Notes under the pieces: generated by a model
Told to the model about the DNA's origin: nothing
Database searches by the model: none
Seen by the model: the letters and a program-made list of their open reading frames with translations, nothing else
Part shown: positions 1,565 to 45,357 of the stretch, in pieces
Numbering within the stretch: position 1 is the stretch's first letter
Layout of the letters: each line of letters begins with the position of its first letter
Assembly (NCBI GenBank): GCA_019057375.1
Contig: DXJF01000148.1
Coordinates: 1-64,000, forward strand
Length of the DNA: 64,000 nt
Direction: 5' to 3'
Origin: Candidatus Heimdallarchaeota archaeon
Lineage (GTDB): Archaea; Asgardarchaeota; Heimdallarchaeia; Heimdallarchaeales; Heimdallarchaeaceae
Program-made: the position numbers and the translations under genes

Positions 1565-1590
1565 TCTGTAATTTAAAACTTGGCTTATTA

Positions 1591-3787: not shown

Positions 3788-4460
3788 CTTTTTTTAGTTT
3801 TAGAGTAACTAGATAGCCCTCATGTAATTTATTCACCGTCTGTATTTCACAGTTAATTGCGTCTCCAATATTGTGAATAGCTTCTTGTTCGAACAAAAGT
3901 TTTGCATTTTTTCCTCCAACAAAAACTGGGGCATAAAAAATGTGCATGATGTCCACCAATCTATTAGTTAAGAACTGTGTAATCACTGTTGAACCCCCTT
4001 CTACCAGCAACTTATTAATTCTAAATTGAGTTTTCAAGATTTTCAATACTTCAGTCAAATTCAGATATCTTTTATTTTCTTCAAATTCTACAGAAGTTAC
4101 TTTTGCTCCGAGTTTTCTAATTTCATCTTGTTTATTTACTGAACATTCCTTGGATGTAATAATAATTGAGGGCAATCTTTCTTGGTCTTGAAGAACTTTC
4201 GCTGTCAAAGGAATTTTGCATTTAGTATCCAAAATTACCCTTAATGGAGCAGGTACTTTAGGTTTGATATATCTAACAGATAACAAAGGGTCATCCTTGA
4301 GAATTGTATTTACACCAACAAGAATTGCATCAACAGAGTTTCTTAATTCATGTACTCTTACCCAATCTTCAGTTGTTGATAAAATCAGGGCCCCTTCACT
4401 AGAAGCGATTGCACCATCTAAAGAACTAGCAACATTTACAATTACTTCAGGTTTTTCCAC
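3780..4460 (-). CDS. arfC: 2,5-diamino-6-(ribosylamino)-4(3H)-pyrimidinone 5'-phosphate reductase (stand-alone RibD C-terminal reductase)
   Basis: ASSLDGAIA, VHELRNSVDAILVGVNTILKDDPLL, LRVILD and LLVEGG motifs; no deaminase domain; in an operon with cofGH. Confidence 0.85.
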   Translation of the reverse strand: MEKPEVIVNVASSLDGAIASSEGALILSTTEDWVRVHELRNSVDAILVGVNTILKDDPLLSVRYIKPKVPAPLRVILDTKCKIPLTAKVLQDQERLPSIIITSKECSVNKQDEIRKLGAKVTSVEFEENKRYLNLTEVLKILKTQFRINKLLVEGGSTVITQFLTNRLVDIMHIFYAPVFVGGKNAKLLFEQEAIHNIGDAINCEIQTVNKLHEGYLVTLKLKKDE

Positions 4461-5599: not shown

Positions 5600-5718
5600 G
5601 GGAGCAAGTGTATTTTAAGCTAATAAAGTCTTTGTAGAATTTATAAAAAACATAAGAATCACTAAACTTATAATTCAACCATTTGAAATTAGCCTCAAGG
5701 CACAATTATGTGATAAAA

Positions 5719-7935: not shown

Positions 7936-7990
7936 AATTTCTTTTTCTAAATTTTCTTTCTTTTTATTTACTTTGGTAAGTATTTTTTGT
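7936..7990 (+). terminator. Oligo-T tracts after EF-2 (archaeal-type terminator, convergent intergenic region)
   Basis: Several T4-T6 runs directly after the stop codon. Confidence 0.4.
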
Positions 7991-8047
7991 AAATATAGTA
8001 AAAAAAGAAATTGAAAAGAGTAAAAAGGAAGAATTGAGTGAAGATCT

Positions 8048-9586: not shown

Positions 9587-11031
9587 CCTTGTCTTTGCAT
9601 CCTGTTAAACTGAGCCATTATTGTTGGTAGAAAATCATCTGGTCCTACTGAAATAGAAACAGAATCGTACCTTCTCAGTAATTTAAACATGTTCTGTCTT
9701 TCTCCTAACTGCTTTTCGACCATTGCATGACCGATCATCTGTTCCACTGGAGATAACTGTTGAGAAACAATCTCAAACCAGGGACCAAATGGTGAAATAA
9801 CAGTTATATTGTGTTTCTGTGCTCTAGCACGCCTAACAGCTTTCACCAAACGATCGGGATGTGACTCAAGATCTGTTAGAATTACTATATAGGAGGATCT
9901 TTTTACTCTTTGAAGTAGGTAGCTTATAGCAACTTCAAGATCTGCTTCTCCTTCAGGTTTGGCATAAGCTAAAGCTTCTAGAAATTGGAATAATCTAGAT
10001 CGTGTTGAAGTTACATCAACCCAATTCCGAACTTTATCGTTATATATACACATCCCCACTAAGTCTTTCTTCTCGAAAGCAAGATGTATTAATAAAACTG
10101 CACTGCGGATTGCATATTCTAGTTTTGTGTTCCTTGGTAAACCTGCACCCATACTAGCGGAGGAATCTATCAAAACCAGCACACGGATATTTTCTTCAGA
10201 TTCAAACTCACGAACCATCATTTTACCAGAACGTGAAAAAGCTTTCCAGTCGATGAATTTGAAAGGATCACCAGTTTGATATTTGCGAATACCCCAGAAA
10301 TCAGAGCCCATTCCTTTGAGTTTGGTTCTATGGAACCCAAATAGCAATCCTAGTTGCCTCTTCTTGCCCACCATATCTAGTTTCTTAATATCCTCATAAC
10401 TTGGATAAACTAGAATTTCTGTTTTAGATTTAATTTCACCTTCTGTTGCATAGAAACCCATTCTATCTCTGATTATTACTTTTGTAGGACCGATTTCGAA
10501 AAGTCCTCTAATAGGAATTCGAACTACATATCCATACGAGATGGTTTGTCTTGGATTAAGTTGCGTTACAATGAAATTTTCTCCAAGAATCAAATCGAAA
10601 ACTTCTGGTATAGCATCATAGATTTCAATAGCTGGCAGTTGATTAACTGATTTGTTTCTGGCAGTTACTTCGATATAGACATAATCACCAGCGAAAGCTT
10701 TTGGTTTGGACACTCGTCTCTTAATTTCTATTGATTTAGGATTAGAGCCCAACCTGTAGAAAGGCAAACCCAATAGAACTGAAAAGATCAGCATCACTCC
10801 ACCGATAATGAAGAACCAGATGAGAGTTCCTTGACTATCTACATAAAAATGAAGGAAATCCATAACTCCAAAACCCTCTGGGTCAGGTGTTCCTCCAGGG
10901 CCCTCTATTTGTGGATTAACACCGAAAGAGTCAAGCATCACATTGAGTGACAAATACCCTGCTAGTGCAAAGCCTGCACTAATCATGATGATTCCAGCAA
11001 ATATTAGCCAGCCACCTCGGCGAGTAAACAA
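9583..11031 (-). CDS. DUF58/vWA domain protein with two N-terminal TM helices
   Basis: GSDFWGIRKYQTGD..IDWKAFSR...VREFESE, LIDSSASM (DxSxS MIDAS), VILTDLE; adjacent to MoxR. Confidence 0.88.
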   Translation of the reverse strand: MFTRRGGWLIFAGIIMISAGFALAGYLSLNVMLDSFGVNPQIEGPGGTPDPEGFGVMDFLHFYVDSQGTLIWFFIIGGVMLIFSVLLGLPFYRLGSNPKSIEIKRRVSKPKAFAGDYVYIEVTARNKSVNQLPAIEIYDAIPEVFDLILGENFIVTQLNPRQTISYGYVVRIPIRGLFEIGPTKVIIRDRMGFYATEGEIKSKTEILVYPSYEDIKKLDMVGKKRQLGLLFGFHRTKLKGMGSDFWGIRKYQTGDPFKFIDWKAFSRSGKMMVREFESEENIRVLVLIDSSASMGAGLPRNTKLEYAIRSAVLLIHLAFEKKDLVGMCIYNDKVRNWVDVTSTRSRLFQFLEALAYAKPEGEADLEVAISYLLQRVKRSSYIVILTDLESHPDRLVKAVRRARAQKHNITVISPFGPWFEIVSQQLSPVEQMIGHAMVEKQLGERQNMFKLLRRYDSVSISVGPDDFLPTIMAQFNRMQRQG

Positions 11032-33217: not shown

Positions 33218-34378
33218 CTAGAGTTCTTCAATCTCTTCAAGAATATATCTTTCACTTCCAGTTTGTTGACTCTGAATTTCTAATTCTCTTTCGGAAACAA
33301 TTTCTCTTTCTATTCTGTCTAAAGCAACAGCAAATGCTCCAAAAACACCATAACCATCAGAACGAGAAACATAGGTTTTTCCTTTATTTGTAGAAATTCT
33401 CACTCTCAATTGATAAAGAATAGAACCACGAAACTTTCTTTTAGGGATTGCCTTTGCATGGATATACATTTGTCCAGATGTACCAATTATGTCTGAATAT
33501 TTCTTTACTATTTCAATTCCCATTTCAATAACATCTTCCATGTCTGAATCCTCAACATCTCCAAGAACTCTTAAATAATAACCCTCAGTTTCTGGTGGCA
33601 TTGAAACAGTTTCAAGTAAGTCTGTTGTAGTGATTATTCCTACAGGATGATTTTCCTTATCAATAACTATCAATGCTTTATGATCTGCTTTTTCAAGCTT
33701 AACTATAGCTTCTATTAAGAAGTCATTTTCAGTGCAAGTTGCAACTTCTTGAGTCATCAACTCCTCAACAGTTACTGAGAGTACATCTAGCTGTCCTGCT
33801 TTTCTATTTCCTCGTGTTTGTCTTAGAGATTCTGATAAAATTAAATCAGTAGTATCATGTGGACTCATTATACCAACAAGCTCATTCGATTCATTAACAA
33901 CTGGTGTTCTAGAGATGTTGTTAGTTCTGCAAATGGCAATAAATTTAGCAACTGAAGTGTCTTTGGTAACTACAATAGGATTTTGAGTCATCACCTCTTT
34001 CACCTTCTTACTGCCAAAAATATCTTCTGAATTTCTTAACAAATCAATATCACGAATAACTCCAATAATATGTCCATCATCCACTACAGGAACGGAAAAA
34101 ATCTTTTCAGATAAAAGTGCTCTTGCAATCACATCAGGAGTAGAGTCTTTACTAACTGTAGGCACACGTTTAATTAAACTTGATACTTTTGTATTAGGTT
34201 GAACTTTTGATTGATGTGTAACATATCGTTTAGTTAAATAACCAAGAAACACGTCTTTTTCCTCAAAAACCAATATCTCTCTTGTTTTTTCCTTAAACAT
34301 AGAAGCAACATTTGATAACGGTTCAGTACCATCAACTGAAACAAACTCTGTTATAATAGAAGAATCTTTGTTATTCAT
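33218..34378 (-). CDS. 4xCBS domain protein with C-terminal HPF/RaiA-like domain (Hib-type ribosome hibernation factor candidate)
   Basis: Four CBS repeats (VPVVDDGHIIGVI, TPVVNESNELVGIM, LIVIDKENHPVGII); C-terminus 'YQLRVRIST..GKTYVSRSDGYGVFGAFAVALDRIEREI'. Confidence 0.7.
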   Translation of the reverse strand: MNNKDSSIITEFVSVDGTEPLSNVASMFKEKTREILVFEEKDVFLGYLTKRYVTHQSKVQPNTKVSSLIKRVPTVSKDSTPDVIARALLSEKIFSVPVVDDGHIIGVIRDIDLLRNSEDIFGSKKVKEVMTQNPIVVTKDTSVAKFIAICRTNNISRTPVVNESNELVGIMSPHDTTDLILSESLRQTRGNRKAGQLDVLSVTVEELMTQEVATCTENDFLIEAIVKLEKADHKALIVIDKENHPVGIITTTDLLETVSMPPETEGYYLRVLGDVEDSDMEDVIEMGIEIVKKYSDIIGTSGQMYIHAKAIPKRKFRGSILYQLRVRISTNKGKTYVSRSDGYGVFGAFAVALDRIEREIVSERELEIQSQQTGSERYILEEIEEL

Positions 34379-34458: not shown

Positions 34459-34826
34459 TTAAAGCGAATATTCCTTTCTGAATTTTAACATACTATCGCC
34501 ATATTGATGAGATAGCCTACTTGCATGATGAAATAACTTGTCTACATTAAAACCAGAAAGAGCCGAAGACTCAACATAATCAAACTTATGTAATTTGGTA
34601 TAATCTAACATTACTTCTTTCTCAATAGATCTAGCTTCATTTAAGTCAAATTTATTTCCACAAACTACAATAGGTATATCAGGACATTTCGAGACAACTT
34701 CATTTACCCAGATTTCTATCTCATCAGAAGAGCTTTGATTGGTGATATCATAGACAATAACGGCACAAGTGGCACCGGAGTAGTATTTAGGACGGAGATA
34801 AGTAAACATCTCTTGTCCACCTGTAT
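34459..34826 (-). pseudogene. 3' fragment of a Rab-like small GTPase gene (lacks G1, G2 and the Asp of G3)
   Basis: Reads TGGQEMF...GNKFD...ESSA...KEYSL and is collinear with the C-terminal 121 aa of 43914..44501; the upstream in-frame sequence is unrelated to GTPases. Confidence 0.85.
34459..34826 (+). repeat. Direct repeat copy 1 (368 bp; GTPase 3' end)
   Basis: Aligns without gaps to 43914..44281; similarity stops abruptly after CCTGTAT. Confidence 0.85.
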
Positions 34827-34885
34827 ATTTCAATACATCTTGAAGTCGAGAAACAGTTAAAGGGGCATATACAAAATATCGATTT

Positions 34886-35794
34886 TCAGTCTGAATTGTA
34901 TTTTTTATTGTTTTTTTCCTTTTTTAATAAATGCAAAACAATCATAACAGAAATAGGAAAGATTATCCATATAATCTCAAAACTATTTATTACTATTTCA
35001 TCTTTCTCATATAGTTCAGTATTCGATGGTTCAGATACATATATTTCTTCATCATAATCAACTATCACGAGTGAATAGTATTGCCCCACAGAAAAGTTTG
35101 TAATGTTGATTTTTCCAGAAGACCAAGTATAGTAAAAACCTATAAATCCTGTTTGTTCTAATACAAGAGTTTTAACAATGTCATTTGTTGAATTAAGAAT
35201 ATTTGCACATACTTCACTATTCAGTAATAAGATATAATCACGAAGATCATGTGGATCAGTAGAAATAGAGCAATAATTAGATAGAGTGTTGTTTTCACTA
35301 TTTATAATTAAACTATTATAGCCAAAGACAATACTGAATGGTACTTTGTAGGAAAAAATAGTGTTATTATAGTAATAATTCTCAGTTGTAACAGTTAGAT
35401 TGACAAAGTATCTTCTAGGGCTGAAATAATAAACATAAATAACCGTTTCCCAACAATGGCTAACATTATTGTATGTAACAGAATAGGATTCAGAAAAATT
35501 AGCATTATTAATAATTTCAATTGTCACATTATCCTCTGCATCACCCTGTGAGATGTCTGTACCATTTGCAAATGTAATAGTTAGATTACTTATTGATAGA
35601 TGCGAAGCATTATAATCGATAAGTGGCTCGTTTATCAATAGTAGAAAGGAATCATAATCTGTTAAAGTCATTTGATTTTTATTATTATCTCTGTCTTTAC
35701 TCACACAGAAACTAGAATTTTCTCTTTCTAGAGTCATCACTAATGCATCATACTGAAGAGAAGTGAAATACGAAAAACTAACTATGAGTACCAC
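34886..35794 (-). CDS. Surface glycoprotein paralogue A1 (two beta domains, C-terminal TM anchor)
   Basis: 'INEPLIDYNASHLSISNLTITFANGT..GDAEDNVT' shared with 36114 and 39951; many NxS/T; C-terminal TM then a basic tail. The frame is open upstream to an ATA at 35839. Confidence 0.75.
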   Translation of the reverse strand: MVLIVSFSYFTSLQYDALVMTLERENSSFCVSKDRDNNKNQMTLTDYDSFLLLINEPLIDYNASHLSISNLTITFANGTDISQGDAEDNVTIEIINNANFSESYSVTYNNVSHCWETVIYVYYFSPRRYFVNLTVTTENYYYNNTIFSYKVPFSIVFGYNSLIINSENNTLSNYCSISTDPHDLRDYILLLNSEVCANILNSTNDIVKTLVLEQTGFIGFYYTWSSGKINITNFSVGQYYSLVIVDYDEEIYVSEPSNTELYEKDEIVINSFEIIWIIFPISVMIVLHLLKKEKNNKKYNSD

Positions 35795-36113
35795 AATTAG
35801 TATGAAGATAGTGAATGTGTATATTATCTTTCTTTCTATAGTATTTCACCTTCTTTCTTTCGATTTTCTTCATGATTTTAACTTGATATTAAAGTGACAA
35901 ACATCACTTCATTATGGTATAAAATTATCGGTAATGTATAAGTATGTTTCATATATCAGTTATTTCCCCTGCAACTCAATAACTAAAATATCTTCAAATT
36001 CCTGTACAAACTGTAGTTTGATTTTAGCAAAGTGTTTTTTTATTTTTTTATACTGTTACATTTCAGAATCTGTTTGATTAATACTCAAATAAAATTCAAA
36101 AAAGTTGTCTAAT

Positions 36114-37091
36114 CTATTGCTTATACTTTTTCTTCCTTAACAGATGCACGAAACTTATAAGACTGACTGAAATGATAATCAACGCTGTCTTATCCCCACT
36201 CGTTGTTGGTGTTTCTGTAGGTTGGTCAGGCATATAAAAGACTCTATTTGAAGGAGGAGATATGAACAATTCTTCCTCATAAACAACAAATCCTACCGCA
36301 TAGTATTGGCCAGTTTCCAAATCATCAACATTGAGATCTGAAGTCCAACGGTACCACCAAAAACTAAATCCTCCCCAAGTTAGTATGACTGTTTTGACAT
36401 TATAATCAAAAGAATTGAAAATACACCCATAGATAGTACTATTAAACAAAACATAATCAAGATAAATAGTTGGATTTATAGTAATAGAAATAGATATGTG
36501 CATTATTTGACTCTCATTACTTAAACCAAGTAGAGGTATTCTAAAATGGATACTGAAACCTATTTCAAATGAGTCAATAGTATTATTATAATAATACAAT
36601 CCTGTTGATACGATTAAACCGATATAATATATCCCTGGATATTCATAATAAAAAATAAATATGTCCTTTCCCCAGCCATTAAATCGATTCAAGTCGTAAT
36701 CCATTGTATAATTGCTTGAAAAACCCTTATCATTGAAAATTACTAATGTTACATTATCTTCTGCACTTGCATCAGTTATCGCTGTATCATTAGAGAAAGT
36801 AATATTCAGATTCATCACTGTTAAATAAGTAGCATTCTGCGATATTACTGGAGTATTTATTATTAATTGAAAATCATCAGTTAGTTCATTTGTCAAAGAT
36901 TTTTCATCTGTTTTGACTTTTCCAGAAGAACTTGAATGGTTCAAAGTTCTCAGTTGGTAGATATTTGAAGCTTCTTGCTTTAAAATAAAGGAAGAAGAAC
37001 AAATCATAAAGATAGTTAACACTATTATTGAAATTGAAATTATTCTGTTTTTTCTTCTCATGTGGATGTTCTCCTTATTTTGTTTTAACAT
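36114..37091 (-). CDS. Surface glycoprotein paralogue A2
   Basis: 'INTPVISQNATYLTVMNLNITFSNDT..ASAEDNVT'; signal MRRKNRIISIS (likely start 37061); PTETPTT linker, TM and RKKK tail. Confidence 0.8.
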   Translation of the reverse strand: MLKQNKENIHMRRKNRIISISIIVLTIFMICSSSFILKQEASNIYQLRTLNHSSSSGKVKTDEKSLTNELTDDFQLIINTPVISQNATYLTVMNLNITFSNDTAITDASAEDNVTLVIFNDKGFSSNYTMDYDLNRFNGWGKDIFIFYYEYPGIYYIGLIVSTGLYYYNNTIDSFEIGFSIHFRIPLLGLSNESQIMHISISITINPTIYLDYVLFNSTIYGCIFNSFDYNVKTVILTWGGFSFWWYRWTSDLNVDDLETGQYYAVGFVVYEEELFISPPSNRVFYMPDQPTETPTTSGDKTALIIISVSLISFVHLLRKKKYKQ

Positions 37092-37129
37092 TCCTTCTTC
37101 TACACAAATTATCTATGAATTTGAATTAA

Positions 37130-38698
37130 TTAGGGCATAATGTTATCTTTTATATATAAATAGGTTTCATAGGAATCGATTATTCCCCAAGCTATTCTAT
37201 AATTGCCAGGATAATAACCAAAGTTAGTAGATTCGTCATAAGGATCCAAGGATTCGTATGCCCCTCCACTTTCTGTACCATAATTCTTGGGAGAATCACC
37301 TTCTGCATCACCAGTATATTTCAATACCTCTTGAAGTTGAGAAATAGTTAAAGGATCATAGTATTGTTTCAAGATAGCAGTAATCCCAGAAACAAAAGTG
37401 GCAGCATTACATGTACCAGCGATTTCATAAATATCTGTATCTGGTTCCCAAGGAATAGTAGTATAATAATCGATACCCGCTATATCAATACCATATCCAT
37501 TGCAAGCTCCATCATCACCTGTTCTTAATTTCCAAGAAGAATCACCATTATCTCTATCATAGACTCCTGTAACTCCTATAACTGTAGATAGAGACGCTGG
37601 AAAACAAGCATTACTTTCTTGAGAAAATGTCTTTGCTTGATTAGTTGAAGGAGCAACAGTGATTACTTTTTGATTCAATCCACCACCGTTGGCGATATCG
37701 TCAAACCAAGTTTCGTAGTCATCAAAATTATATGTAGTACCCCAAAACCAGGAATAAATACTACCTAAGTATCTATCTATGTCACTCTTGAAGTCCCCCC
37801 AAAATAAACTGATTACTTCTATACTATAATCTATGTGAATATCATTTTCAGAAATCCATCTTATTGCAGCTAATTCTTTCAAAGGATTCCCTCGGTGCTC
37901 AACAAACATATACTTTGCATGAGGAGCAATTTGAACTAAAACACTTAAAACTTTTGTACCGTGCATATGATCAATGTTTCCAGCATTTTTAGGTCTATAC
38001 GGATCCTCTTCATTTCTAATCGCATCCCATTTTGCAGATGCACTTAGCTGATCCCAATTGGAAGTAAGTTTCTTAAAACTTGGATTATCTCCTTCCGAGT
38101 CTCTATCAAATATGAAGTAATCTACATCTCTGATAACATTAGAATATTCCTTATAGATGGACGGGTGATAGTTGGAGTTAATGACGTCATTATACCCTAG
38201 ACCATCAACCATCACGCAAATAGTCACTCCTTGTCCAGCTTTACCAAGATCATGCAGTTTATCGATTCTCAGGTCATTTATGTCATCTTGATCAGTTGCT
38301 GAGTAGGTATAAAAGGTTCTGAAGGTGTTGTATTGGTCATAATCAAAAGGACGAGCACGAAAACAATTAACTTCTATTTTTAATGTATGTATTTTCGAAG
38401 CTAAACCATGGATATTGACATTGACAAATGATTGGGAATACATGCCTTTATACAGCCCATCAATAAAAATCCTCGAAGATTCTAGTAACCAACCAGAACG
38501 TACTACTACTCGATAATGAATGTTCACACTTTCCCAATAAGGATATCTTTCATAGGCTGTAGGGGAATAGATAATAACGTACCCACTATCAGCAGCTTCT
38601 GCATGTTGAAGAAATGTTGTTGGATACACAATAATTATTAAACTCACCAGAACAACCACAAGCAGTTTTCTGGTCTTTTTCGACAATGAAATGTTCAT
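37130..38698 (-). CDS. Secreted subtilase (S8)-fold protein with Cys at the catalytic Ser position
   Basis: Signal peptide; GQGVTICVMVDG (Asp), HGTKV (His), IDIAG, AGTCNAATFVSG (GTSxAxPxVxG equivalent), ILKQ. Confidence 0.75.
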   Translation of the reverse strand: MNISLSKKTRKLLVVVLVSLIIIVYPTTFLQHAEAADSGYVIIYSPTAYERYPYWESVNIHYRVVVRSGWLLESSRIFIDGLYKGMYSQSFVNVNIHGLASKIHTLKIEVNCFRARPFDYDQYNTFRTFYTYSATDQDDINDLRIDKLHDLGKAGQGVTICVMVDGLGYNDVINSNYHPSIYKEYSNVIRDVDYFIFDRDSEGDNPSFKKLTSNWDQLSASAKWDAIRNEEDPYRPKNAGNIDHMHGTKVLSVLVQIAPHAKYMFVEHRGNPLKELAAIRWISENDIHIDYSIEVISLFWGDFKSDIDRYLGSIYSWFWGTTYNFDDYETWFDDIANGGGLNQKVITVAPSTNQAKTFSQESNACFPASLSTVIGVTGVYDRDNGDSSWKLRTGDDGACNGYGIDIAGIDYYTTIPWEPDTDIYEIAGTCNAATFVSGITAILKQYYDPLTISQLQEVLKYTGDAEGDSPKNYGTESGGAYESLDPYDESTNFGYYPGNYRIAWGIIDSYETYLYIKDNIMP

Positions 38699-38966
38699 TA
38701 TTTTAACAACCTCCTATCGTTAAATTAATATCAAACAGAAGCTTACTTAAACAGATATAAAAGGATTTCTCAGAATTTTAAAGATGTTAACTAAACCCAA
38801 CTTGGTAACATATTATCAAGAAACTTGCAATGAAATTGTGCAATCTTTTCATGTATGAGATATCTTATACAAAATCTTGAAATCCTTAATGAAAGATCAA
38901 TTTATCTCTACAAAATCAAATATTCGCTTACGATGTATATTAAAACTGAATATACTAAAAAAAAAA

Positions 38967-39338
38967 TTAGTTATTTGCTAGTCTTTCTCGAATTTCTCAA
39001 GGTGTCATTCTCCCCATACTACTTCCTGTTCTAATAGGATAATAGTGATTTGTTCTTTAAGGAGAATAAGCGTATAATCTGCCTTCTTAAACTAGAGCTT
39101 CAATTACGAAAATCTTAAGTTTAAGTTTATCTGCCAAGGGACAAAACTCCTTTGATATCATTCGTAATTTAGGATTATATTTTTCATCCAAATGCTTTTG
39201 GATAGTATCTCTCAGTTCTTCAAGTTTAGTTTTTCTTACTCCTTTTATTTCTAAATCATCGCTGATTCCTAATATTATCATACCAGCTTTCTGATTATTT
39301 TTCATTCCAACTAGTTGTATCGATATTTTTTTCCACAA
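38967..39338 (-). pseudogene. AlbA_2/Schlafen-like domain remnant
   Basis: 'AGMIILGISDDLEIKGV'. Reading through in-frame stops at 39087, 39057 and 38997 gives V*EGRLYAYSP*RTNHYYPIRTGSSMGRMTP*EIRERL, resembling the AlbA_2 C-terminus; N-terminus missing. Confidence 0.6.
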
Positions 39339-39964
39339 TTAGGACAGAATTTAGAATCAGGTTCAGGTTGAAAATCACATTCTTGACAGAGAGGGGGAAG
39401 TTTGGGAAGATTACGTTTTTTGAGATAACGAGTGAAAAGGAAATAAGCGAGAACAGAAGAACTAAGGACAATAACGGGAAGAAAAACATAATTGTAACGA
39501 TTAAAGAGATTGTTAGGACGAACAGTAAAATAATTCATCCAATCAGAGTAGATATGATAACCAGGTTCATTCCACTCGATATAAGCTTCAAGACGAGAAT
39601 TACCCCATTTTTTGTCATAATAAAGTATACTTGGAGTGTTCCAAGAAGACAAACTCACAGTATTAAGATAAACAATAGAAAGAGTGCTATGAGTATCAGG
39701 GCTTTTCGAAAAACGAACTTTGACAACAATATCGGTAATAGAAATAATATGAGGGTTTATGCTAAGAAGCTTAACAGTAATATTCATAGAAATGAAGTTA
39801 GTATTAAGAAGAAGAGAGTTGAGAGAGAGGGAAAGTTCTAGAGAAGTACCACTGGGGTAAGTAATTGTAAAAGAACGCTCATGAAGAGCAGAAGAAGGAG
39901 AAGAGATAAGAGGAAAACAGAAGAAAGTAAGAATCAAAAGAATGATGAGTTTATTGTTTTTCAT
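39311..39964 (-). CDS. Membrane protein with extracellular beta domain and C-terminal zinc ribbon
   Basis: Signal-like N-terminus, TM near aa 160-180, CQECD...FCPNCG. Confidence 0.75.
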   Translation of the reverse strand: MKNNKLIILLILTFFCFPLISSPSSALHERSFTITYPSGTSLELSLSLNSLLLNTNFISMNITVKLLSINPHIISITDIVVKVRFSKSPDTHSTLSIVYLNTVSLSSWNTPSILYYDKKWGNSRLEAYIEWNEPGYHIYSDWMNYFTVRPNNLFNRYNYVFLPVIVLSSSVLAYFLFTRYLKKRNLPKLPPLCQECDFQPEPDSKFCPNCGKKYRYN

Positions 39965-40988
39965 GTATATTCTTCCTAGTAGATTTGTAAGTATAAATAA
40001 ATTTCCTGAAAATAAAGAAGATTACAAGTGGAGAAAAGAAGTAGAAACTAGTTTTAGTAGGTTCACTCGGAGTAATAGCTACCATTTGAGAAGGAAATGA
40101 GTGAAATTCTTGGTTTTGATAATTGAGATAAATGACTGTATAATAGTTGTTCGACTGAAAGTCAGAATAGTCAAACTGAAATGACCAAGTAAAATAATCA
40201 ATAGAGTGAAGTTGTGCTGAAAAACAAAGTTGTTTTGAAGAATTGTAGATGAATGCAGTAACAGAGATTTGATTGAGAACCTCTTGAAGATTACAGGGTA
40301 AAATAGAGATATTAATTGAAATAGAGAGAGAAGATAAAGAAGAATCTACAATCAATAATGGTTGGGAAAATTCGACTTGCAAATTAATAACAAAAGAAGA
40401 GAGAAAAGAAGAGTACCAAAAATCAGAAGTGTTAGCATGTAGAAAAATATCATAGGTACCAGGGAGTAGAGAAGTGATATCAGTGCAAATTCCCCAGCCA
40501 TAAAAAAGTTCAGGACTAAACAGCATCTCTTCTTGGAAGCTAAATGTTTCAGAAACAATTTCCAGAATAACAAAATCTTCTCCCGATGAAAAGAAAATCT
40601 CAGTATTGTTAATGAAAAAAATATTCAAAGCATAAACAGTAAGATGGGTTGAATTCTGCTCAATAAGAGGAGTATTAGTGACTAGATAATAAGGATTGTA
40701 AGTACTGATTGATAAGTATGCGAATGAACTTAAGCCAATACCTGAAGAAACCAAAGGGAAGTTTTGATCTAAAGATGAAAGAACAAGAAGGATATGAGTG
40801 ATATTAACAGAAGGAAGTATATTAAAAGTTAAATTTGAACTAATGGTAACTTCGGTAGCTATTAGTGTTTCTTGAGAATAATAAAACGCTATTAACCCTA
40901 ATCTTTTGTAATTTGGATTGGCAAGAGAGATCTCGAATCTTGTTGTTGTAAAATCAAATAAAATCAGATAATTGCACTTATAGAACAA
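39951..40988 (-). CDS. Surface glycoprotein paralogue A3 (true start uncertain)
   Basis: 'TNTPLIEQNSTHLTVYALNIFF..SGEDFVILEI' homologous to A1/A2; PSEPTKT linker plus TM. Confidence 0.7.
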   Translation of the reverse strand: MFYKCNYLILFDFTTTRFEISLANPNYKRLGLIAFYYSQETLIATEVTISSNLTFNILPSVNITHILLVLSSLDQNFPLVSSGIGLSSFAYLSISTYNPYYLVTNTPLIEQNSTHLTVYALNIFFINNTEIFFSSGEDFVILEIVSETFSFQEEMLFSPELFYGWGICTDITSLLPGTYDIFLHANTSDFWYSSFLSSFVINLQVEFSQPLLIVDSSLSSLSISINISILPCNLQEVLNQISVTAFIYNSSKQLCFSAQLHSIDYFTWSFQFDYSDFQSNNYYTVIYLNYQNQEFHSFPSQMVAITPSEPTKTSFYFFSPLVIFFIFRKFIYTYKSTRKNIHEKQ

Positions 40989-41003
40989 GGTTCAGCTTAT
41001 AAA

Positions 41004-42566
41004 ATGATCATGGATGATGGTTTCTGGACTACTGCTACAAAAACAGCAGATGACATTACAGATAACATAAATCTGAAATATATACCAACTGGGGGAGGAG
41101 AACCAGTAGAAATACTCTTTGACGCTAAGGTGTTTAGAGTTGATTTTGATGTAGTAGATGGAAAGAAGTATCTAAAGAAACCACAGTTTCCAGGACCAGA
41201 CATCTCATGGGAATCTTTGACAGATGCACAAAAACAAGCATACGGAGAACTAAATACTCTAATAGATAATGCTTTAGGGGGATTTGATTCTTGTATTGAT
41301 GATCTAACACCACATCAAGTCGCAGGGAGAATAAATGAAATGCAGACACTAATCTACAATAAAATGATTTCTACAGGAGTTTTTGACGAATTTCAGATTT
41401 TTAGCGGTGGAACAATGGAGTTCTGTCTCGAGACTTTTTCTTCATCTAATCGTGGGTTAGTTATTGATAATTATCTTAAATCTTTCTTTGATCAAAATGG
41501 AATTGTTACTTATAATTATCATCAACAATGGGATGCACCATTTAGTGCAAGACTAGATACGCTATTCGGTGGAACAGTACAAGAATCTGTTAATGCAATA
41601 ACTTTCAAAGAGAACTGGTTCAAAATGCTTTTGGAAGATAGTAATTATGATGTTAGTGGTAAGACTCTTGGGGAGATAGAGGAATTAATACAAAACAATC
41701 CTGATATTGGAGAAACTTTGTTACGTAATTTTCAAGATCCTTACAAACTACCAGATGGGAATTTTTGGAGAGGTAATAGTGATGGTGAGATTAACAAATG
41801 CCTAGTTTTTTACAACAAAAAGACAGGAGAACCATTCCAACTTGTATCAGAAGCAGGAACAAAATTCAATGTATATATGAATTACAATTTACAACATATG
41901 CTAGACAATTTAGGTCTAGATAAGAAATTACTACAAAATCCTATAACCTTTAGTATATCAGATAAGGGAAGATTCATGGTAGATTTCAATCCGGTAGCAG
42001 GTTCTCGAAGAGCTGGATATGGAGAAGAAGTTGCTGAAGCATGGATTACACATCTAAGAAACAGATATGGAATTCCAGAAGACACTTTAGATTTACTTAG
42101 GAGGAGAATTGGTTATGGGACTGGACTTGATCTCTTCCATCCATCTGGGGATGATGAAATGATGAAACTTTTCGCGCTGATATTAGCAGATTACCAAAGA
42201 AACTGTGATGATGCAATGCAGTATCTGAGAAGTAGAATATCACAATATCCAAACGGGATTGGTTTTGGTACTACTTATGCAACTGACCACATATCCAGTA
42301 TTGATATTGATTGGAATGGGAACTTACGTATAAATGATGTAGAAATAAACATAAGATTTGGACAACAGAAAACTTCAGGTAGAGCTATTCCAGGATGGGA
42401 AAGCACTAGAGGTGTGTACTCACTAGGAGATGGTGGGAATTGGTTATCAAAGTTAATCAATGAGATCAAAATTGAAGCGCTAAATTTAGTATTCTCATTC
42501 CCAGAAAAACCAAAAATACAAGATTTCTTTAAATGGATTACTACAAACTGGCACTTCCTAAATTAG
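41004..42566 (+). CDS. Orphan hypothetical protein, possibly the C-terminal part of a larger protein
   Basis: 520-aa ORF with no signal peptide and no recognised motif; the frame is open 14 codons upstream of the ATG. Confidence 0.7.
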   Translation: MIMDDGFWTTATKTADDITDNINLKYIPTGGGEPVEILFDAKVFRVDFDVVDGKKYLKKPQFPGPDISWESLTDAQKQAYGELNTLIDNALGGFDSCIDDLTPHQVAGRINEMQTLIYNKMISTGVFDEFQIFSGGTMEFCLETFSSSNRGLVIDNYLKSFFDQNGIVTYNYHQQWDAPFSARLDTLFGGTVQESVNAITFKENWFKMLLEDSNYDVSGKTLGEIEELIQNNPDIGETLLRNFQDPYKLPDGNFWRGNSDGEINKCLVFYNKKTGEPFQLVSEAGTKFNVYMNYNLQHMLDNLGLDKKLLQNPITFSISDKGRFMVDFNPVAGSRRAGYGEEVAEAWITHLRNRYGIPEDTLDLLRRRIGYGTGLDLFHPSGDDEMMKLFALILADYQRNCDDAMQYLRSRISQYPNGIGFGTTYATDHISSIDIDWNGNLRINDVEINIRFGQQKTSGRAIPGWESTRGVYSLGDGGNWLSKLINEIKIEALNLVFSFPEKPKIQDFFKWITTNWHFLN

Positions 42567-42600
42567 AGGGTAGAAGTGTTATCTTCACTTCTCCACTCTA
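42564..42600 (+). terminator. Hairpin after the 520-aa ORF
   Basis: AGAAGTG/CACTTCT stem (42572-42592) with outer TAGAG/CTCTA pairing, followed by CTTTT. Confidence 0.3.
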
Positions 42601-42621
42601 CTTTTGCCACAGAAAGCTTAA

Positions 42622-43881
42622 ATGTACAGAAACATAATTTTATGTGAGAGTAAGTGTATGATAAAAGATGAAAAAGTTTATCCGGTCAGTACATGTTTTA
42701 ACTGTCAGACTCTCAATTCCTCTAATAACGAATTTTGTCTGAATTGCGGAGTATTTTTACTATTGGATGAACTATTTTGCTCCAAATGCAGTAATCCTTT
42801 TAAAAAGAACGATGTGAAGTGTTATGTTTGTGGATTAGAAATAAAGGAAGGAGAAGCAGAAGAAATCAATTGGGAAACATTCTATCCTGAAGAAAAGCAG
42901 ATATTCACAGATATATTAACAGATAAGAAAGGAAGGGAGTACATTCTACAAGAGTATGGTGAAAAGGGTTTTGACACCTTTACAGGATATTTAGACTGGG
43001 AATTCTTGGATTTGTTTGATATTGTAGAAGAAGAACTGAAATTCTTACCTTCTGTTAAAATTCTTCTTTCTGATGATGCTCCAGAAAGGTTGTTATCAGA
43101 ATACAGTTTAGTTAATAGTTTTAGTATTGAAGAAAAAGTGAAAAAACTAGCAGATAAATTGAATGAAAAGGTTGGTTCAAGTGTATTACTTCAACCTTTT
43201 CATGAGGTAAGAATCATCTTTAGTATAGTAGCGGAAATTTATGAAAGATATTTTAACTTTGAACTGAGAATTTTTAGTAGAACGAAAAAGGAGAAGGAAG
43301 AACTAGTAAGAATCCTACTTAGAACTTTACTGAATTTCTATTCTACACTCATTCAGAAATCTAAGGTAAAGGATGAAGCAAATATAGTTGCTAGGAAATT
43401 GATAATCTTTATTTCATTGTTGGATGAGTTAACATTCTGTCATGATTTAGGAGATACATTAAGTGAGGGGGAATATGATGAATGTAATCACATAATAAAT
43501 GAAAGAATAATAAGAGCAGCAATGTTAGATGAGATATACAAGAAAAAGAGAAAACAACAAGAAGATAAAAAGAAGCTTAGGAATGTATGCAGGGAAATAA
43601 TTGCAGATTTAGGAAGGGCACTATACCTACAGTGGGTATTGAATTATGATGAAGTGGAACCAATATTAAACACACTAATTGAAAAGGTTAGGGCATTTAT
43701 TAAAGAAGAAGTAGATCTACCATACGAAAAAATAATAAAACAAACAAAAGAGAGTTTTCCGTATGTATATCTTAGGGGAGAGGAAGTAGAAGAGGAAAAG
43801 AAGAGAGGATTTCTAGAGAAAATAAGAAAACTAGAAGAATATCTAAAAGAGTATGAAAAGGGAAAAATGGTTTTTGGGTAG
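42622..43881 (+). CDS. Double zinc ribbon protein with an acidic/basic helical C-terminal region
   Basis: CFNC..FCLNCG...FCSKC...CYVCG, followed by an E/K-rich helical region. Confidence 0.8.
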   Translation: MYRNIILCESKCMIKDEKVYPVSTCFNCQTLNSSNNEFCLNCGVFLLLDELFCSKCSNPFKKNDVKCYVCGLEIKEGEAEEINWETFYPEEKQIFTDILTDKKGREYILQEYGEKGFDTFTGYLDWEFLDLFDIVEEELKFLPSVKILLSDDAPERLLSEYSLVNSFSIEEKVKKLADKLNEKVGSSVLLQPFHEVRIIFSIVAEIYERYFNFELRIFSRTKKEKEELVRILLRTLLNFYSTLIQKSKVKDEANIVARKLIIFISLLDELTFCHDLGDTLSEGEYDECNHIINERIIRAAMLDEIYKKKRKQQEDKKKLRNVCREIIADLGRALYLQWVLNYDEVEPILNTLIEKVRAFIKEEVDLPYEKIIKQTKESFPYVYLRGEEVEEEKKRGFLEKIRKLEEYLKEYEKGKMVFG

Positions 43882-43913
43882 TAACAAAGTCAATTGGCAT
43901 TTGTTTAGTAATT

Positions 43914-44281
43914 CTAAAGTATGTATTCCTTTCTGAACTTCAACATTTCTTCACCATACTGGTGTGATAACCTACTTGCATGATGAAAGAGCTTGTCAAC
44001 ATTGAAACCAGAGAGAGCGGAAGTTTCAACATAATCAAACTTCTTAAGATGGATATAATCAAGAATAGTATCCTTATCAATGGAACGAGCTTCATTAAGG
44101 TCAAATTTATTGCCACTGATGATAACAGGAATATCAGGACATTTGGAGAGAACTTCATTGACCCAGACATCTAAATCGTCGAAAGAACTCTGGTTGGTGA
44201 TGTCATAGACAATAATGGCGCAAGTAGCACCAGTGTAGTATTTGGGGCGGAGATAGGTGAACATTTCTTGGCCTCCTGTAT
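43914..44281 (+). repeat. Direct repeat copy 2 (3' end of the intact GTPase gene)
   Basis: Gap-free alignment to 34459..34826. Confidence 0.85.
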
Positions 44282-44501
44282 CCCAGCAAGACATTCTTAT
44301 TTTCATTGGTTCACTATATATTTCCTTAGTTAAATTTTCATTCAGTTGTTCTGGAGTTAAGGTTATAGTTTTTGTTAGCCAGCTAACTCCTAAAGTAGGG
44401 ATATAACTGTGAATAAATGTGTTTAAAGTAAATCTTCTAGCCAATGATGTTTTTCCAACAAAAGCAGAACCAACGCATATAATTTTTTGTAACTGATTCA
44501 T
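43914..44501 (-). CDS. Rab/Ran-like small GTPase (Ras superfamily)
   Basis: G1 GSAFVGKTS, G2 YIPTLGV, G3 WDTGGQE, G4 GNKFD, G5 ETSA; no C-terminal Cys prenylation motif. Confidence 0.92.
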   Translation of the reverse strand: MNQLQKIICVGSAFVGKTSLARRFTLNTFIHSYIPTLGVSWLTKTITLTPEQLNENLTKEIYSEPMKIRMSCWDTGGQEMFTYLRPKYYTGATCAIIVYDITNQSSFDDLDVWVNEVLSKCPDIPVIISGNKFDLNEARSIDKDTILDYIHLKKFDYVETSALSGFNVDKLFHHASRLSHQYGEEMLKFRKEYIL

Positions 44502-44505
44502 TTTC

Positions 44506-45357
44506 TTACCTCCATACTAAATTTAAAACATCTTGTAGGATTCCCAATCCCATCATTCTATCCCATTCTACTCTTATCGTTGAAGGTGATTTTGATGCTA
44601 CAATCTGTCGTAATTCTTTAATTCCTATCTTCTCTTCAACAAAATCCATTATTTTCTTTAATAGAACTAAAAATTCTTCTTTTATTTCTATAGCTGTTCC
44701 TCTTTGAATATCTATGTCACAGAAACTGAAACCTTCTTCCTCTTTCAAAGAAAATTTTTCTTTTATTAAGTAAGTATTCTTATCAAGAAAATCGCTTATA
44801 TCTTCTTTTATTTCTTGAATAGAAACTGTTGTAATCTTCGATTCATTTTCAACAAGAAATAGTCTAATTCCTAACCAGATTGAATTCAAAATGTTCTCAA
44901 AAACTTCAATCATGTTCCTCTTATCAATATCTTCTATGTGTAAATCAAGTACATTCCACAGCATAAATGAATGTGATAATGATTCAGAGATTTCTCTTCT
45001 CTTTATTCCTTCAAGCTCATGTAAAAACTCACTGACGCTTTTCTCATCTTTTATTTCGAAAGCGTTTAAGAATAATTTCATAAAGAAGAACAGTTGCGAT
45101 GAAATCATTTCAGTTGAATAATTTGGAGGACTGAGGAGAATAAATAAGAAAGAGTATTTACTCATGAAAACTACTTTGGATTTGGCAAATTGGAGTACTT
45201 GTAATTCCTCTAATAACGGTTGTTCTTCAGATCTCATATAGAAATCTAATAATGTTTTAACAATAGAATCAACTTCTGTTTCGTCTGCTTTGACAGAAAG
45301 AGGTCTACAGAATAAGATTTCCAACTTTTCTTTGTTAATAATATAGAACCCCATCAA
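44506..45357 (-). CDS. Longin-like domain protein
   Basis: N-terminal beta-beta-alpha-beta-beta-beta-alpha pattern (GFYIINK..EILFCR..helix..KVVFMSKYSFLFILLS..helix); 4 bp upstream of the GTPase gene. Confidence 0.5.
   Translation of the reverse strand: MMGFYIINKEKLEILFCRPLSVKADETEVDSIVKTLLDFYMRSEEQPLLEELQVLQFAKSKVVFMSKYSFLFILLSPPNYSTEMISSQLFFFMKLFLNAFEIKDEKSVSEFLHELEGIKRREISESLSHSFMLWNVLDLHIEDIDKRNMIEVFENILNSIWLGIRLFLVENESKITTVSIQEIKEDISDFLDKNTYLIKEKFSLKEEEGFSFCDIDIQRGTAIEIKEEFLVLLKKIMDFVEEKIGIKELRQIVASKSPSTIRVEWDRMMGLGILQDVLNLVWR

What the first reader, a model, noticed from the sequence alone, without database searches (positions are those of the whole stretch)
34459..44501. 9.5 kb island integrated inside a Rab-like GTPase gene, with 3'-end replacement
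Seen: the 3' 368 bp of the intact GTPase gene (43914-44281) recur 9455 bp away (34459-34826). The copies have no gaps or internal stops and differ at 23 of 121 residues by hand count, mostly conservatively. Homology stops sharply at a shared 7-mer ATACAGG in the D-T-G codons of G3. Joining the two outer arms gives an imperfect dyad around it (ATGTCTTG-N16-CAAGAGAT). Between the copies lie only orphan, paralogous and pseudogenised genes. Known: elements integrating into coding genes can supply a replacement 3' end (e.g. e14 in E. coli icd), and 7-bp overlaps typify tyrosine recombinases. Inference: a mobile system that uses the conserved G3 motif of small GTPase genes as its attachment site. 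Asgard genomes carry many such genes, so this would both spread surface-protein cargo and shuffle GTPase C-terminal halves. No integrase was recognised inside, so mobilisation would be in trans, lost, or by homologous recombination.
Basis: partly seen in the sequence, partly recalled or inferred. Interest (0 to 1): 0.85.

Follow-up and report, generated by a model that had tools for sequence, protein, structure and literature searches.

The report
GTPase 3' half displaced by island
A 9.5 kb block of strain-variable surface-protein genes entered a Rab-like GTPase gene of a Heimdall-group Asgard archaeon together with a foreign copy of the gene's second half; the original second half was left downstream as an orphan, probably by ordinary recombination plus a sloppy end-join, not by an integrase.

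Summary
Window 34459-34826 and 43914-44281 share 289 of 368 nt and differ at 23 of 121 residues, with no gaps or stops.

Supported parts of the interpretation:
- At least 12 species of the genus have the empty site: one GTPase gene 70-90 bp before the CBS gene.
- The fragment beside CBS is the native 3' half (93-99% to the G013/G009 orthologues).
- The 3' half of the intact gene is foreign.
- Five other assemblies carry the same junction.
- A second, 35%-identical GTPase paralogue has the same architecture in G011 and G034.
- All four orphan fragments found start in the G3 box.

The proposed mechanism is not supported:
- The right junction is a patchwork: 16 bp, then 52 bp copied from an S8 peptidase gene, sealed on a 9-bp microhomology.
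- The junctions at the paralogue use other partners and positions.
- No island version encodes a recombinase.
- No tyrosine recombinase was found in the G000 assembly.
- A near-isogenic occupied/empty pair points to allelic exchange by homologous recombination.

Best reading (0.55): C-terminal displacement as in rhs loci. A homologous anchor in the conserved 5' half is combined with a microhomology end-join, followed by spread through flanking recombination, gene conversion and deletion decay.

Main rival (0.25): an unknown system that breaks DNA at the G3 box.

The parts
44506..45357 (-). 283-aa conserved partner gene ending 4 bp before the GTPase; native left flank
   Evidence: 92-96% aa identity to the G009, G013 and G018 orthologues. 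No fixed difference between occupied and empty alleles over its 856 nt.
44295..44501 (-). Native 5' part of the intact Rab-like GTPase gene (gene nt 1-207; G1, switch I and the insertion loop)
   Evidence: 177/180 nt identical to G013. No fixed occupied-versus-empty difference before nt 208.
43914..44294 (-). Imported 3' part of the intact GTPase gene (gene nt 208-588). The 368-bp repeat copy is 43914-44281; the 7-mer ATACAGG is 44275-44281
   Evidence: 78% nt identity to the G013/G009 orthologues against 98% for the 5' part. In the tree it falls outside the native+orphan clade. Pfam Ras 1.6e-41 for the whole gene.
42622..43881 (+). DZR419: double zinc ribbon plus a ~330-aa all-alpha helical-repeat domain, convergent with the GTPase 3' end
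   Evidence: Pfam DZR 2.1e-6. Only 9 relatives in 5.8 billion proteins, all Heimdall-group. AF2 model pLDDT 71, all helices, with no PDB match at E<1e-3. It lies next to a GTPase 3' end in G011, G034, L086, L117 and L119.
41004..42566 (+). p520: stand-alone copy of the C-terminal ~500 aa of a giant-protein family
   Evidence: 37% identity over aa 4-519 to the end of a >=2979-aa open frame in G008:C25. No Pfam, PHROG or PADLOC hit. C-terminal pieces lie beside DZR in G011 and G016.
39951..40988 (-). surf345: membrane-anchored paralogue of surf325 and surf302
   Evidence: Paralogy shown by direct repeats D3, D5 and D8 and by the translations. No Pfam hit.
39311..39964 (-). p217: signal peptide, TM segment and C-terminal zinc ribbon
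   Evidence: Weak zinc-ribbon hits. Homologues follow the GTPase directly in G018:C288 and precede the paralogue orphan in G034:C143.
39087..39338 (-). 83-aa remnant of a Schlafen/AlbA_2 gene
   Evidence: Pfam SLFN_AlbA_2 4.9e-7, covering profile positions 20-78 of 118 only. 99% identical copy in L117.
37130..38698 (-). S8 subtilase-like gene; 37309-37360 is the paralogous source of the junction filler
   Evidence: Pfam Peptidase_S8 3.8e-8. 88% identity of 37309-37360 to 34818-34869.
36114..37091 (-). surf325: membrane-anchored surface-protein paralogue
   Evidence: Replaced by other sequence in contigs of runs X3 and X4.
34886..35794 (-). surf302: last cargo gene, always linked to the right junction
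   Evidence: 92-93% aa identity in G018:C328 and L117; also present in L081 and L083.
34818..34885 (-). Junction patch: 16 bp (34870-34885), then a 52-bp S8-derived piece (34818-34869). Its last 9 bp (34818-34826, ATACAGGTG) overlap the GTPase homology
   Evidence: Alignment of the three sequences. The same patch occurs in G018, L081, L083 and L117.
34459..34826 (-). Orphan: displaced native 3' half of the GTPase gene (G3 to stop)
   Evidence: 98% aa and 93-99% nt identity to the 3' half of the single genes of G013 and G009. Clusters with them in the tree. dN/dS 0.04-0.18.
33218..34378 (-). CBS-domain gene; native right flank, which directly follows the single GTPase gene in empty-site genomes
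   Evidence: Pfam CBS 1.6e-36. Adjacent to the GTPase in G001, G003, G005-G010, G012-G014 and G017.

Best explanation
This is 'C-terminal displacement' at a recombination hot spot, not integration by an integrase.

Proposed sequence of events:
1. Foreign DNA entered from another lineage of the same Heimdallarchaeaceae genus. It carried that lineage's allele of the same Rab-like GTPase followed by a cargo island: DZR, p520, surface-protein paralogues, an S8 subtilase and an AlbA_2 gene.
2. It paired with the resident gene through the highly conserved 5' half (inferred anchor). The homologous exchange was resolved just before G3, where similarity collapses.
3. The far end of the incoming DNA had no homology. 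It was sealed to the resident gene inside the G3 box by microhomology-mediated joining (shown: 9 bp, ATAC(A/T)GGTG), with a 52-bp filler derived from an S8 gene.
4. The result is an intact chimeric GTPase (native nt 1-~207, imported nt ~208-588), the 9.5 kb island, and the resident 3' half stranded as an orphan before the CBS gene.

What happened afterwards:
- The occupied allele spread among strains by ordinary homologous recombination in the flanks (shown for L081 versus G013).
- The two 3' copies exchanged patches by gene conversion (shown in L117 and in the G034 paralogue).
- The island decayed by deletions (shown in G018, L081, L083 and L086).
- The same process acted at a second GTPase paralogue.
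For: Empty site: one full-length GTPase lies 70-90 bp before CBS in 12 or more congeners.

Orphan is native, intact 3' half is foreign:
- Orphan versus G013/G009: 93-99% nt. Intact 3' half versus the same genes: 72-84%. 5' part: 98%.
- In the tree the orphans cluster with the native genes and the imported halves fall outside that clade.

Illegitimate right junction:
- 16 bp plus 52 bp that are 88% identical to 37309-37360 of the S8 gene. The S8 gene's own sequence continues through the 9-bp overlap.
- The identical patch occurs in G018, L081, L083 and L117, so it has a single origin.

Left boundary is not at the 7-mer:
- There are no fixed occupied-versus-empty differences in 1063 nt upstream. 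They start at nt 208, 210 and 216, 5 to 13 nt before the 7-mer at nt 221-227.

Second locus (G011:C20 and G034):
- The full paralogue diverges from about 12 nt before G3.
- A ~19 kb island begins with DZR and a p520 C-terminal piece.
- The native orphan (91-95% to the G000 paralogue) is joined through an 11-bp microhomology, TCAAGAAGTTT, to an unrelated position of an ortholog-type remnant in G011. In G034 it is joined to the 3' flank of a p217-like gene.

Spread by homologous recombination:
- L081 (occupied) and G013 (empty) are 99.3% identical in the flanks (dS 0.00-0.05).
- Yet L081's orphan is 3.4% diverged and the first 800 nt of CBS 1.9% diverged, so the orphan came in with the island.

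Other points:
- Mosaics show gene conversion between copies.
- Shorter versions show deletion decay.
- No recombinase: Pfam, PHROGs and PADLOC are negative for all cargo genes. The DZR419 model is an alpha-solenoid. There is no PF00589 match in the G000 assembly.
- Known precedent for the mechanism: PMC5361080, PMC3240628.
Against: - Four orphan starts at two loci all fall within about 30 nt around the G3 codons. In three comparisons the left boundary lies within 13-35 nt of the orphan start. A purely random illegitimate join would not be expected to cluster this tightly. I explain it by the anchor ending where similarity drops, but that is inference.
- Orphans are intact, with dN/dS 0.04-0.18 at dS up to 0.5. 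This needs either continual refreshment by recombination with functional native alleles or selection on the orphan.
- L117 shows the island end joined at the same 7-mer to an imported-like 3' half followed by DZR. That is the joint a circular element would have.
- The three fixed differences upstream of the 7-mer lie in a loop that is hypervariable across the genus, so they could be host polymorphism.
- The donor lineage was not found.
Confidence: 0.55

Rival explanations
1. A dedicated mobile or homing-like system breaks or recombines DNA at the G3-box sequence of particular Rab-like GTPase genes. The enzyme is an unrecognised recombinase or endonuclease, encoded in cis or in trans. The system carries a replacement 3' half, so the target gene stays functional.
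For: - All four 5'-truncated GTPase fragments found in G000, G018, G034 and G011 start at Pfam Ras positions 49-58, which is G3. No internal orphan starts elsewhere among 125 Ras hits in four genomes (junctions).
- Two different paralogues (35% identical) carry islands of the same family, with DZR always next to the imported 3' end.
- The left boundary is sharp: there are zero mismatches in the 600 nt before gene nt 200 in L081 versus G013.
- An attP-like joint exists in L117/L118.
- Orphans are intact with low dN/dS, as expected if each was functional until recently.
- The p520 C-terminal piece is 89% identical between the two loci, which suggests recent movement.
Against: - No recombinase, transposase or nuclease domain occurs in any version of the ortholog-locus island. 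The only nuclease in the G011 island is an OLD-family defence gene.
- DZR419 folds as a helical repeat.
- PF00589 is absent from the G000, G011, G013 and G009 assemblies and sporadic in the genus.
- Element-side arms differ at every junction, and crossover points differ by up to about 20 nt. The microhomology is to unrelated sequences (S8 gene; ortholog aa ~150), which conservative site-specific recombination does not produce.
- L081's orphan is not the resident allele of its near-isogenic empty relative.
- No orphans were found in four other genomes (114 Ras hits).
- The G016-type break lies at aa ~91, not at G3.
Confidence: 0.25
2. The two-copy arrangement is old. Empty sites within the species complex are secondary, made by deletion or allelic replacement, and there was no recent insertion.
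For: - Occupied and empty alleles coexist at 99.3% flank identity.
- Direct repeats could delete the island. L086 shows a deletion that removed most of the island and the orphan.
Against: - The single-gene arrangement with a native-type 3' half is found across the genus, including distant species with only 60% CBS identity.
- Deletion between the repeats would leave chimeric 3' halves, yet G013 and G009 are native-type throughout.
- The imported halves branch outside the native clade.
Confidence: 0.07
3. A simple in-situ tandem duplication of the GTPase gene took place, followed by 5' deletion of one copy and later insertion of cargo between the copies.
For: Two co-oriented copies exist and one lacks its 5' part.
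Against: - The copies differ by 21.5% of nt and dS is 1.2, while genomes with and without the island differ by under 1% in the flanks.
- One copy is orthologous to the relatives' genes and the other is not.
- No relative has a full-length second copy.
Confidence: 0.03
4. An assembly artefact joined strain variants.
For: The genome is a 159-contig metagenome bin. In the source run, Logan contigs break at about 36940-37059 and 44787-44859.
Against: - Both junctions lie inside long contigs of the source run.
- The same architecture occurs in at least four independent assemblies, in single contigs running from CDC48 to beyond CBS.
Confidence: 0.01

Closest known systems
C-terminal displacement and orphan 3' modules at bacterial rhs, cdiA and T6SS effector-immunity loci (Jackson et al. 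2009, as cited in PMC5361080; Kirchberger et al. 2017, PMC5361080)
   Same: - A conserved 5' region serves as the anchor.
- A new 3' end arrives with linked genes.
- The old 3' end is pushed downstream and kept as a 5'-truncated orphan.
- Arrays and mosaics build up.
- The proposed mechanism is homology-facilitated illegitimate recombination.
- Spread is mostly by ordinary homologous recombination.
   Different: - The host is an Asgard archaeon.
- The gene is a housekeeping-type Rab-like small GTPase, not a toxin.
- The linked cargo is surface proteins and a subtilase, not a cognate immunity gene.
- The break sits in a catalytic motif (G3), not at a toxin-domain demarcation motif.
Homology-facilitated illegitimate recombination in Acinetobacter, S. 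pneumoniae, P. stutzeri and E. coli (PMC3240628; references 41, 42 and 47 of PMC5361080)
   Same: - One-sided homologous anchor.
- Short microhomology at the other end (9-11 bp here).
- A small deletion of recipient DNA at the joint (about 13-35 nt here).
- Capture of kilobases of foreign DNA.
   Different: - It is inferred here from sequence only.
- No DNA-uptake route is known for these archaea.
- The joints cluster at one motif at two loci, which is not a described property of this process.
Integrative elements that supply a replacement 3' end to their target gene (e14 in E. coli icd, tRNA-gene islands; from established knowledge)
   Same: - Insertion inside a conserved gene.
- The gene is kept intact by an element-borne 3' copy.
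- The displaced native 3' fragment sits at the far junction.
- Empty sites occur in relatives.
   Different: - No integrase.
- The far junction is a patchwork with microhomology to an unrelated gene.
- Junction positions and element arms differ between events.
- Imported sequence starts upstream of the shared 7-mer.
Aloposons and other Heimdallarchaeum mobile elements (PMC8813620); mobile-like regions carrying small GTPases in Atabeyarchaeia (PMC11529989)
   Same: - Asgard hosts and strain-variable regions.
- p520 is related to the C-terminus of a giant ORF, and aloposons carry giant genes.
- GTPase genes are associated with variable regions.
   Different: - Aloposons integrate at tRNA genes and carry tandem 3000-6000-aa genes and a ParA-like ATPase.
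- Here there is no tRNA within 22 kb, no giant gene and no ParA.
- In Atabeyarchaeia the GTPases are cargo, not the target.

Membership tests
Tyrosine-recombinase integrative element with 3'-end replacement | An integrase gene within the element, or at least in the genome | tested here: not met
   No Pfam, PHROG or PADLOC recombinase hit in any cargo gene. No PF00589 match in the 89%-complete G000 assembly. The family is sporadic in the genus and absent from G011, G013 and G009.
Tyrosine-recombinase integrative element with 3'-end replacement | The same short core at both junctions, with conservative exchange exactly there | tested here: not met
   The 7-mer is shared, but the element-side arm is an S8 gene piece whose homology runs through the core. 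Imported-type differences begin at least 13 nt upstream in the intact gene. The paralogue junctions use other sequences and positions.
Tyrosine-recombinase integrative element with 3'-end replacement | An empty site (attB) in relatives | tested here: met
   A single GTPase directly before CBS in 12 or more congeners.
Tyrosine-recombinase integrative element with 3'-end replacement | An excised circular form or attP | tested here: inconclusive
   L117/L118 have an attP-like joint. The fragment is a mosaic, however, and the 9 kb contig is not closed, so an array or a recombination product fits equally well. Only contigs, not raw reads, could be laid, and they showed no excision joint.
C-terminal displacement / orphan-module loci (rhs, cdiA, T6SS effector-immunity) | Conserved 5' part, variable imported 3' part, and a 5'-truncated orphan of the former 3' part downstream | tested here: met
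   second locus.
C-terminal displacement / orphan-module loci (rhs, cdiA, T6SS effector-immunity) | The displaced module is a toxin domain with a cognate immunity gene | tested here: not met
   The gene is a Ras-family GTPase and the cargo has no toxin or immunity annotation. It therefore works like this kind of locus but is not a polymorphic toxin locus.
Homology-facilitated illegitimate recombination | A microhomology joint at the non-homologous end, with a small recipient deletion next to a homologous anchor | tested here: met
   Microhomologies of 9 bp and 11 bp. Only about 13-35 nt of the recipient lie between the left boundary and the orphan start.
Homology-facilitated illegitimate recombination | Entry of linear foreign DNA (transformation, conjugation or cell fusion) | not testable with these tools
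   No donor genome or uptake machinery was identified.
Homing endonuclease-type element | An endonuclease gene inside the insert and a precise insertion without duplication | tested here: not met
   No nuclease domain in the ortholog-locus island. The insertion duplicates 368 bp and has a patchwork junction.
Aloposon | Tandem giant genes, a ParA-like ATPase and integration next to a tRNA gene | tested here: not met
   Only a 520-aa relative of a giant ORF's C-terminus is present. No tRNA in 28000-50000.

The most novel reading that the evidence does not exclude
Heimdallarchaeaceae may possess a system, whose enzyme is still unrecognised, that makes breaks or exchanges at the DNA encoding the G3 box (WDxxGQE) of particular Rab-like GTPase genes. 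It would swap whole C-terminal halves of the GTPase together with linked surface-protein and defence cargo. Displaced halves would be kept intact as a reservoir of alternative modules. This would be a cassette mechanism for diversifying eukaryote-like GTPases in the closest archaeal relatives of eukaryotes.
Probability: 0.22. Interest if true: 0.85.

Novelty: new variant of a known kind. Interest (0 to 1): 0.6.

Why it matters
Small GTPases are signature 'eukaryotic' proteins of Asgard archaea, and how their families diversified is an open question.

This locus shows three things:
- In natural Heimdall-group populations, the two halves of a Rab-like GTPase are exchanged as modules between lineages.
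- GTPase genes act as anchors and boundaries of strain-variable islands of surface and defence genes.
- Displaced halves persist intact.

The pattern parallels rhs-type C-terminal displacement, which has so far been described mainly for bacterial toxin loci. It provides concrete junctions, empty sites and near-isogenic occupied/empty pairs. With these, recombination mechanisms in uncultured Asgard archaea can be tested on read data.

If the clustering of breaks at G3 reflects a dedicated enzyme, that would be a new kind of targeted gene-module exchange.

Tried and rejected
- Reads: only Logan contigs were available for runs X1, X3, X4 and X8. No joint restores 44281 to 34826 and none goes back across it. 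This is no evidence against excision, because contigs drop rare forms.
- Integrase hunt: Pfam, PHROGs and PADLOC on all cargo ORFs, on the G011 island ORFs and on L117's 78-aa ORF found nothing recombinase-like. Four serine recombinases exist elsewhere in G000, none in this window.
- DZR419 as a hidden recombinase or as a Rab GAP/GEF: the AF2 model is an alpha-solenoid. The best Foldseek PDB E-value is 0.06, to designed repeats, Nro1 and karyopherins. No assignment was made.
- p520: the AF2 model has pLDDT 56.8, too poor to search. The ESM Atlas gave no usable hit.
- Inverted repeats flanking DZR, which might explain its opposite orientation in G004 and G016: none convincing.
- Donor lineage: not found among 25 genus genomes or in the 5.8-billion-protein search. 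The closest imported-type alleles all belong to occupied sites.
It was redone on 4+4 genomes.
- My own early argument that the identical junction in four assemblies proves a single event: weakened, because a site-specific mechanism would also give identical junctions. It is kept only in combination with the L081/G013 result.

Full report
**Observation.**
- Window 34459-34826 and 43914-44281 (both read on the minus strand) are a direct repeat 9455 bp apart. They share 289/368 nt and differ at 23/121 residues, with no gap and no stop.
- The upper copy is the 3' part of an intact 195-aa Ras-family GTPase (Pfam Ras 1.6e-41). The lower copy is a 5'-truncated fragment (Ras 2.7e-26, profile positions 55-158).
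- The organism belongs to Candidatus Heimdallarchaeaceae, according to the names sources give to near-identical proteins. The genome is a 159-contig bin, 89% complete.

**It is an insertion, and the orphan is the native end.**
- In G001, G003, G005-G010, G012-G014 and G017 a single full-length orthologue lies 70-90 bp (419 bp in G013) before the CBS gene.
- The window's fragment beside CBS is 93-99% identical in nt to the 3' half of the G013/G009 genes.
- The 3' half of the window's intact gene is only 72-84% identical to them, whereas its first 180 nt are 98% identical.
- In a maximum-likelihood tree of the 3' halves, the orphans group with G013/G009 (support 85/88). The imported halves fall outside, at the level of other species.
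- The copies have dS about 1.2. That excludes a recent in-situ duplication.

**The same allele in other assemblies, and its decay.**
- G018, G034:C21, L081 (a 70 kb scaffold) and L083/84/85 carry an imported-type full gene, then cargo, then the same junction, the orphan and CBS.
- Island content varies:
  - 9.5 kb in the window.
  - G018 lacks DZR, p520 and surf345.
  - L081 and L083 keep only two surface-protein genes.
  - L086 keeps only a 119-codon DZR remnant and has lost the orphan.
- Contigs from cold-seep runs show further deletions and replacements.

**The right junction is illegitimate.**
- Between the stop of surf302 and the orphan lie 16 bp and then 52 bp (34818-34869) that are 88% identical to 37309-37360, inside the island's S8 subtilase gene (aa ~446-463, '...LKYTG').
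- The S8 gene's own sequence (ATACTGGTG) and the GTPase sequence (ATACAGGTG) overlap over 9 bp at the joint.
- Short filler from a nearby gene plus a microhomology is the mark of end-joining, not of conservative site-specific exchange.

**The left boundary.**
- Five occupied alleles were compared with two empty ones. There is no fixed difference in 856 nt of the upstream gene plus GTPase nt 1-207.
- Fixed differences start at nt 208, 210 and 216 and continue through the 3' half. The 7-mer is nt 221-227.
- The imported tract therefore seems to start 13-35 nt before the point where the orphan starts.
- Caveat: these codons encode a loop that is hypervariable in the genus.

**A second locus.**
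- In G011:C20 a different GTPase (175 aa, 35% identical) is about 97% identical to its G000:C63 orthologue in the 5' part. It diverges from about 12 nt before G3.
- It is followed by a DZR homologue, a p520 C-terminal piece, surface proteins, an S8-like gene, an OLD-family nuclease and NosD-like proteins, about 19 kb in all. In G000 only 1.27 kb separate this GTPase from the next gene.
- At the far end lies the native orphan of this paralogue (aa 65/67-175, 91% to G000). It is joined through an 11-bp microhomology, TCAAGAAGTTT, to a decayed remnant of the ortholog-type imported GTPase, which itself starts at D-T-G-G-Q.
- G034 has the paralogue orphan too, but it starts 14 nt further upstream (at W-D-I-G-G) behind a p217-like gene.
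- Among 125 Ras-family matches in G011, G034, G018 and G013, the only internal 5'-truncated copies are these. All begin at Pfam positions 49-58, which is G3.
- Four other genomes (114 matches) have none.
- A G016-type rearrangement, seen in three assemblies, breaks the orthologue at aa ~91 instead.

**How the allele spreads.**
- L081 (occupied) and G013 (empty) are 99.3% identical over more than 9 kb of flanks (dS 0.00-0.05).
- There is no mismatch in the 600 nt before GTPase nt 200.
- L081's orphan nevertheless differs from G013's 3' half by 3.4%, and the first 800 nt of CBS by 1.9%. Divergence then falls to about 0.4%.
- The orphan therefore came with the island through allelic exchange by homologous recombination. 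It is not the resident 3' end displaced on the spot.
- Gene conversion is evident. The L117 fragment is imported-like (nt 228-282), native-like (283-384) and imported-like (385-588). The G034 paralogue is a mosaic of G011-like and G000-like segments.
- This traffic can explain why orphans are intact with dN/dS 0.04-0.18 at dS up to 0.5. Selection on the orphan is not excluded.

**No recombinase.**
- All cargo ORFs are negative for recombinase, transposase or nuclease families in Pfam, PHROGs and PADLOC. So are the G011 island ORFs, apart from an OLD-type defence nuclease.
- DZR419 is the gene always next to the imported 3' end. It models as a double zinc ribbon plus an alpha-solenoid (pLDDT 71) with no significant PDB match.
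- p520 is related to the C-terminal 500 aa of a >=2979-aa ORF. Its model is too poor to search.
- PF00589 is not found in the G000 assembly and is sporadic in the genus.
- No tRNA gene lies within 22 kb.

**Weighing the mechanisms.**
- The anatomy matches C-terminal displacement as described for rhs, cdiA and T6SS effector loci. [quoted passage not shown] It is much rarer than plain homologous replacement (PMC5361080; definition in PMC3240628). I rate this 0.55.
- Three observations pull the other way:
  - Four orphan starts cluster within about 30 nt at G3 at two loci.
  - The left boundary is sharp.
  - L117/L118 have the island's end joined at the same 7-mer to an imported-like 3' half followed by DZR.
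- These keep alive a dedicated system directed at G3 (0.25). Its enzyme is missing, however, and its junctions are not those of a conservative recombinase.
- I explain the clustering by the anchor ending where allele similarity collapses, with the joint forming in the adjacent displaced strand. That step is inference.

**Comparison and novelty.**
- Asgard mobile elements described so far integrate at tRNA genes or short motifs by means of integrases (PMC8813620, PMC11529989).
- GTPases have been noted as cargo of a variable region in Atabeyarchaeia (PMC11529989). In the papers I searched and read, I did not find them described as the anchor and target of displacement.
- I class this as a new variant of a known kind.

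Noticed in passing
window 41004-42566; L080 (G008:C25) 43-8940: p520 aligns at 37% identity over aa 4-519 to the extreme C-terminus of a giant open frame of at least 2979 aa. Truncated C-terminal pieces (aa ~357/383-520) sit next to DZR genes in G011 and G016. This resembles orphaned C-terminal tips of giant proteins, and it may link to the giant genes of aloposons. A toxin-tip/immunity reading of the p520-DZR pair is pure speculation.
   Followed up: partly
L049 (G004:C72) 898-1716; L048 (G016:C91) 8777-9778; L079 (G004:C1) 6653-8191: The DZR gene lies in the opposite orientation (tandem with the GTPase) in G004 and G016. A 45%-identical 512-aa paralogue sits in the SecY / adenylate kinase / Cbf5 housekeeping cluster of G004. 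No flanking inverted repeats were found in the window.
   Followed up: partly
L048 9857-10383; L120 9-828: In G016-type genomes (three independent assemblies) the orthologous GTPase is cut at aa ~91 and abuts a p520 piece (aa ~154) head-to-head. All contigs end about 0.2-0.5 kb beyond. No full-length orthologue was found in G016 (89% complete).
   Followed up: partly
L114 (G011:C20:52001-68000) 1-2256: The G011 island carries an OLD-family nuclease (AAA_15 + OLD-like TOPRIM), two NosD/beta-helix surface proteins and a TFIIB-zinc-ribbon protein. GTPase-flanked islands therefore mix surface and defence cargo.
   Followed up: no
L077 (G011:C20:36000-52000) 6149-7405: A TnpB/IS605-OrfB-like 418-aa gene is inserted just upstream of the GTPase paralogue in G011. 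At least six ~55%-identical copies are scattered in G000.
   Followed up: no
L051 (G013:C41:176000-186000) 3249-3666: The empty site of G013 has an extra ~340 bp between the GTPase stop and CBS that the other genomes lack. It could be a small insertion (a MITE?).
   Followed up: no
L112, L113 (G013:C94 and C11, 1-474): G013 holds two further copies of the GTPase paralogue (aa 18-175, 76-77% identical) that start at contig ends. These are probably alternative 3' alleles from co-binned strains that break the assembly in the conserved 5' half.
   Followed up: no
window 39000-44000: GC skew is strongly positive (up to +0.34), even over the minus-strand genes p217 and surf345, unlike all neighbouring minus-strand genes. 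This fits a foreign or compositionally odd (Ser/Thr/Phe-rich) cargo.
   Followed up: no
window 42631-43366: Contigs from three other metagenomes carry a 734-736 bp in-frame-looking deletion inside DZR that removes the zinc-ribbon half. Most database homologues (315-339 aa) also lack the ribbons.
   Followed up: no
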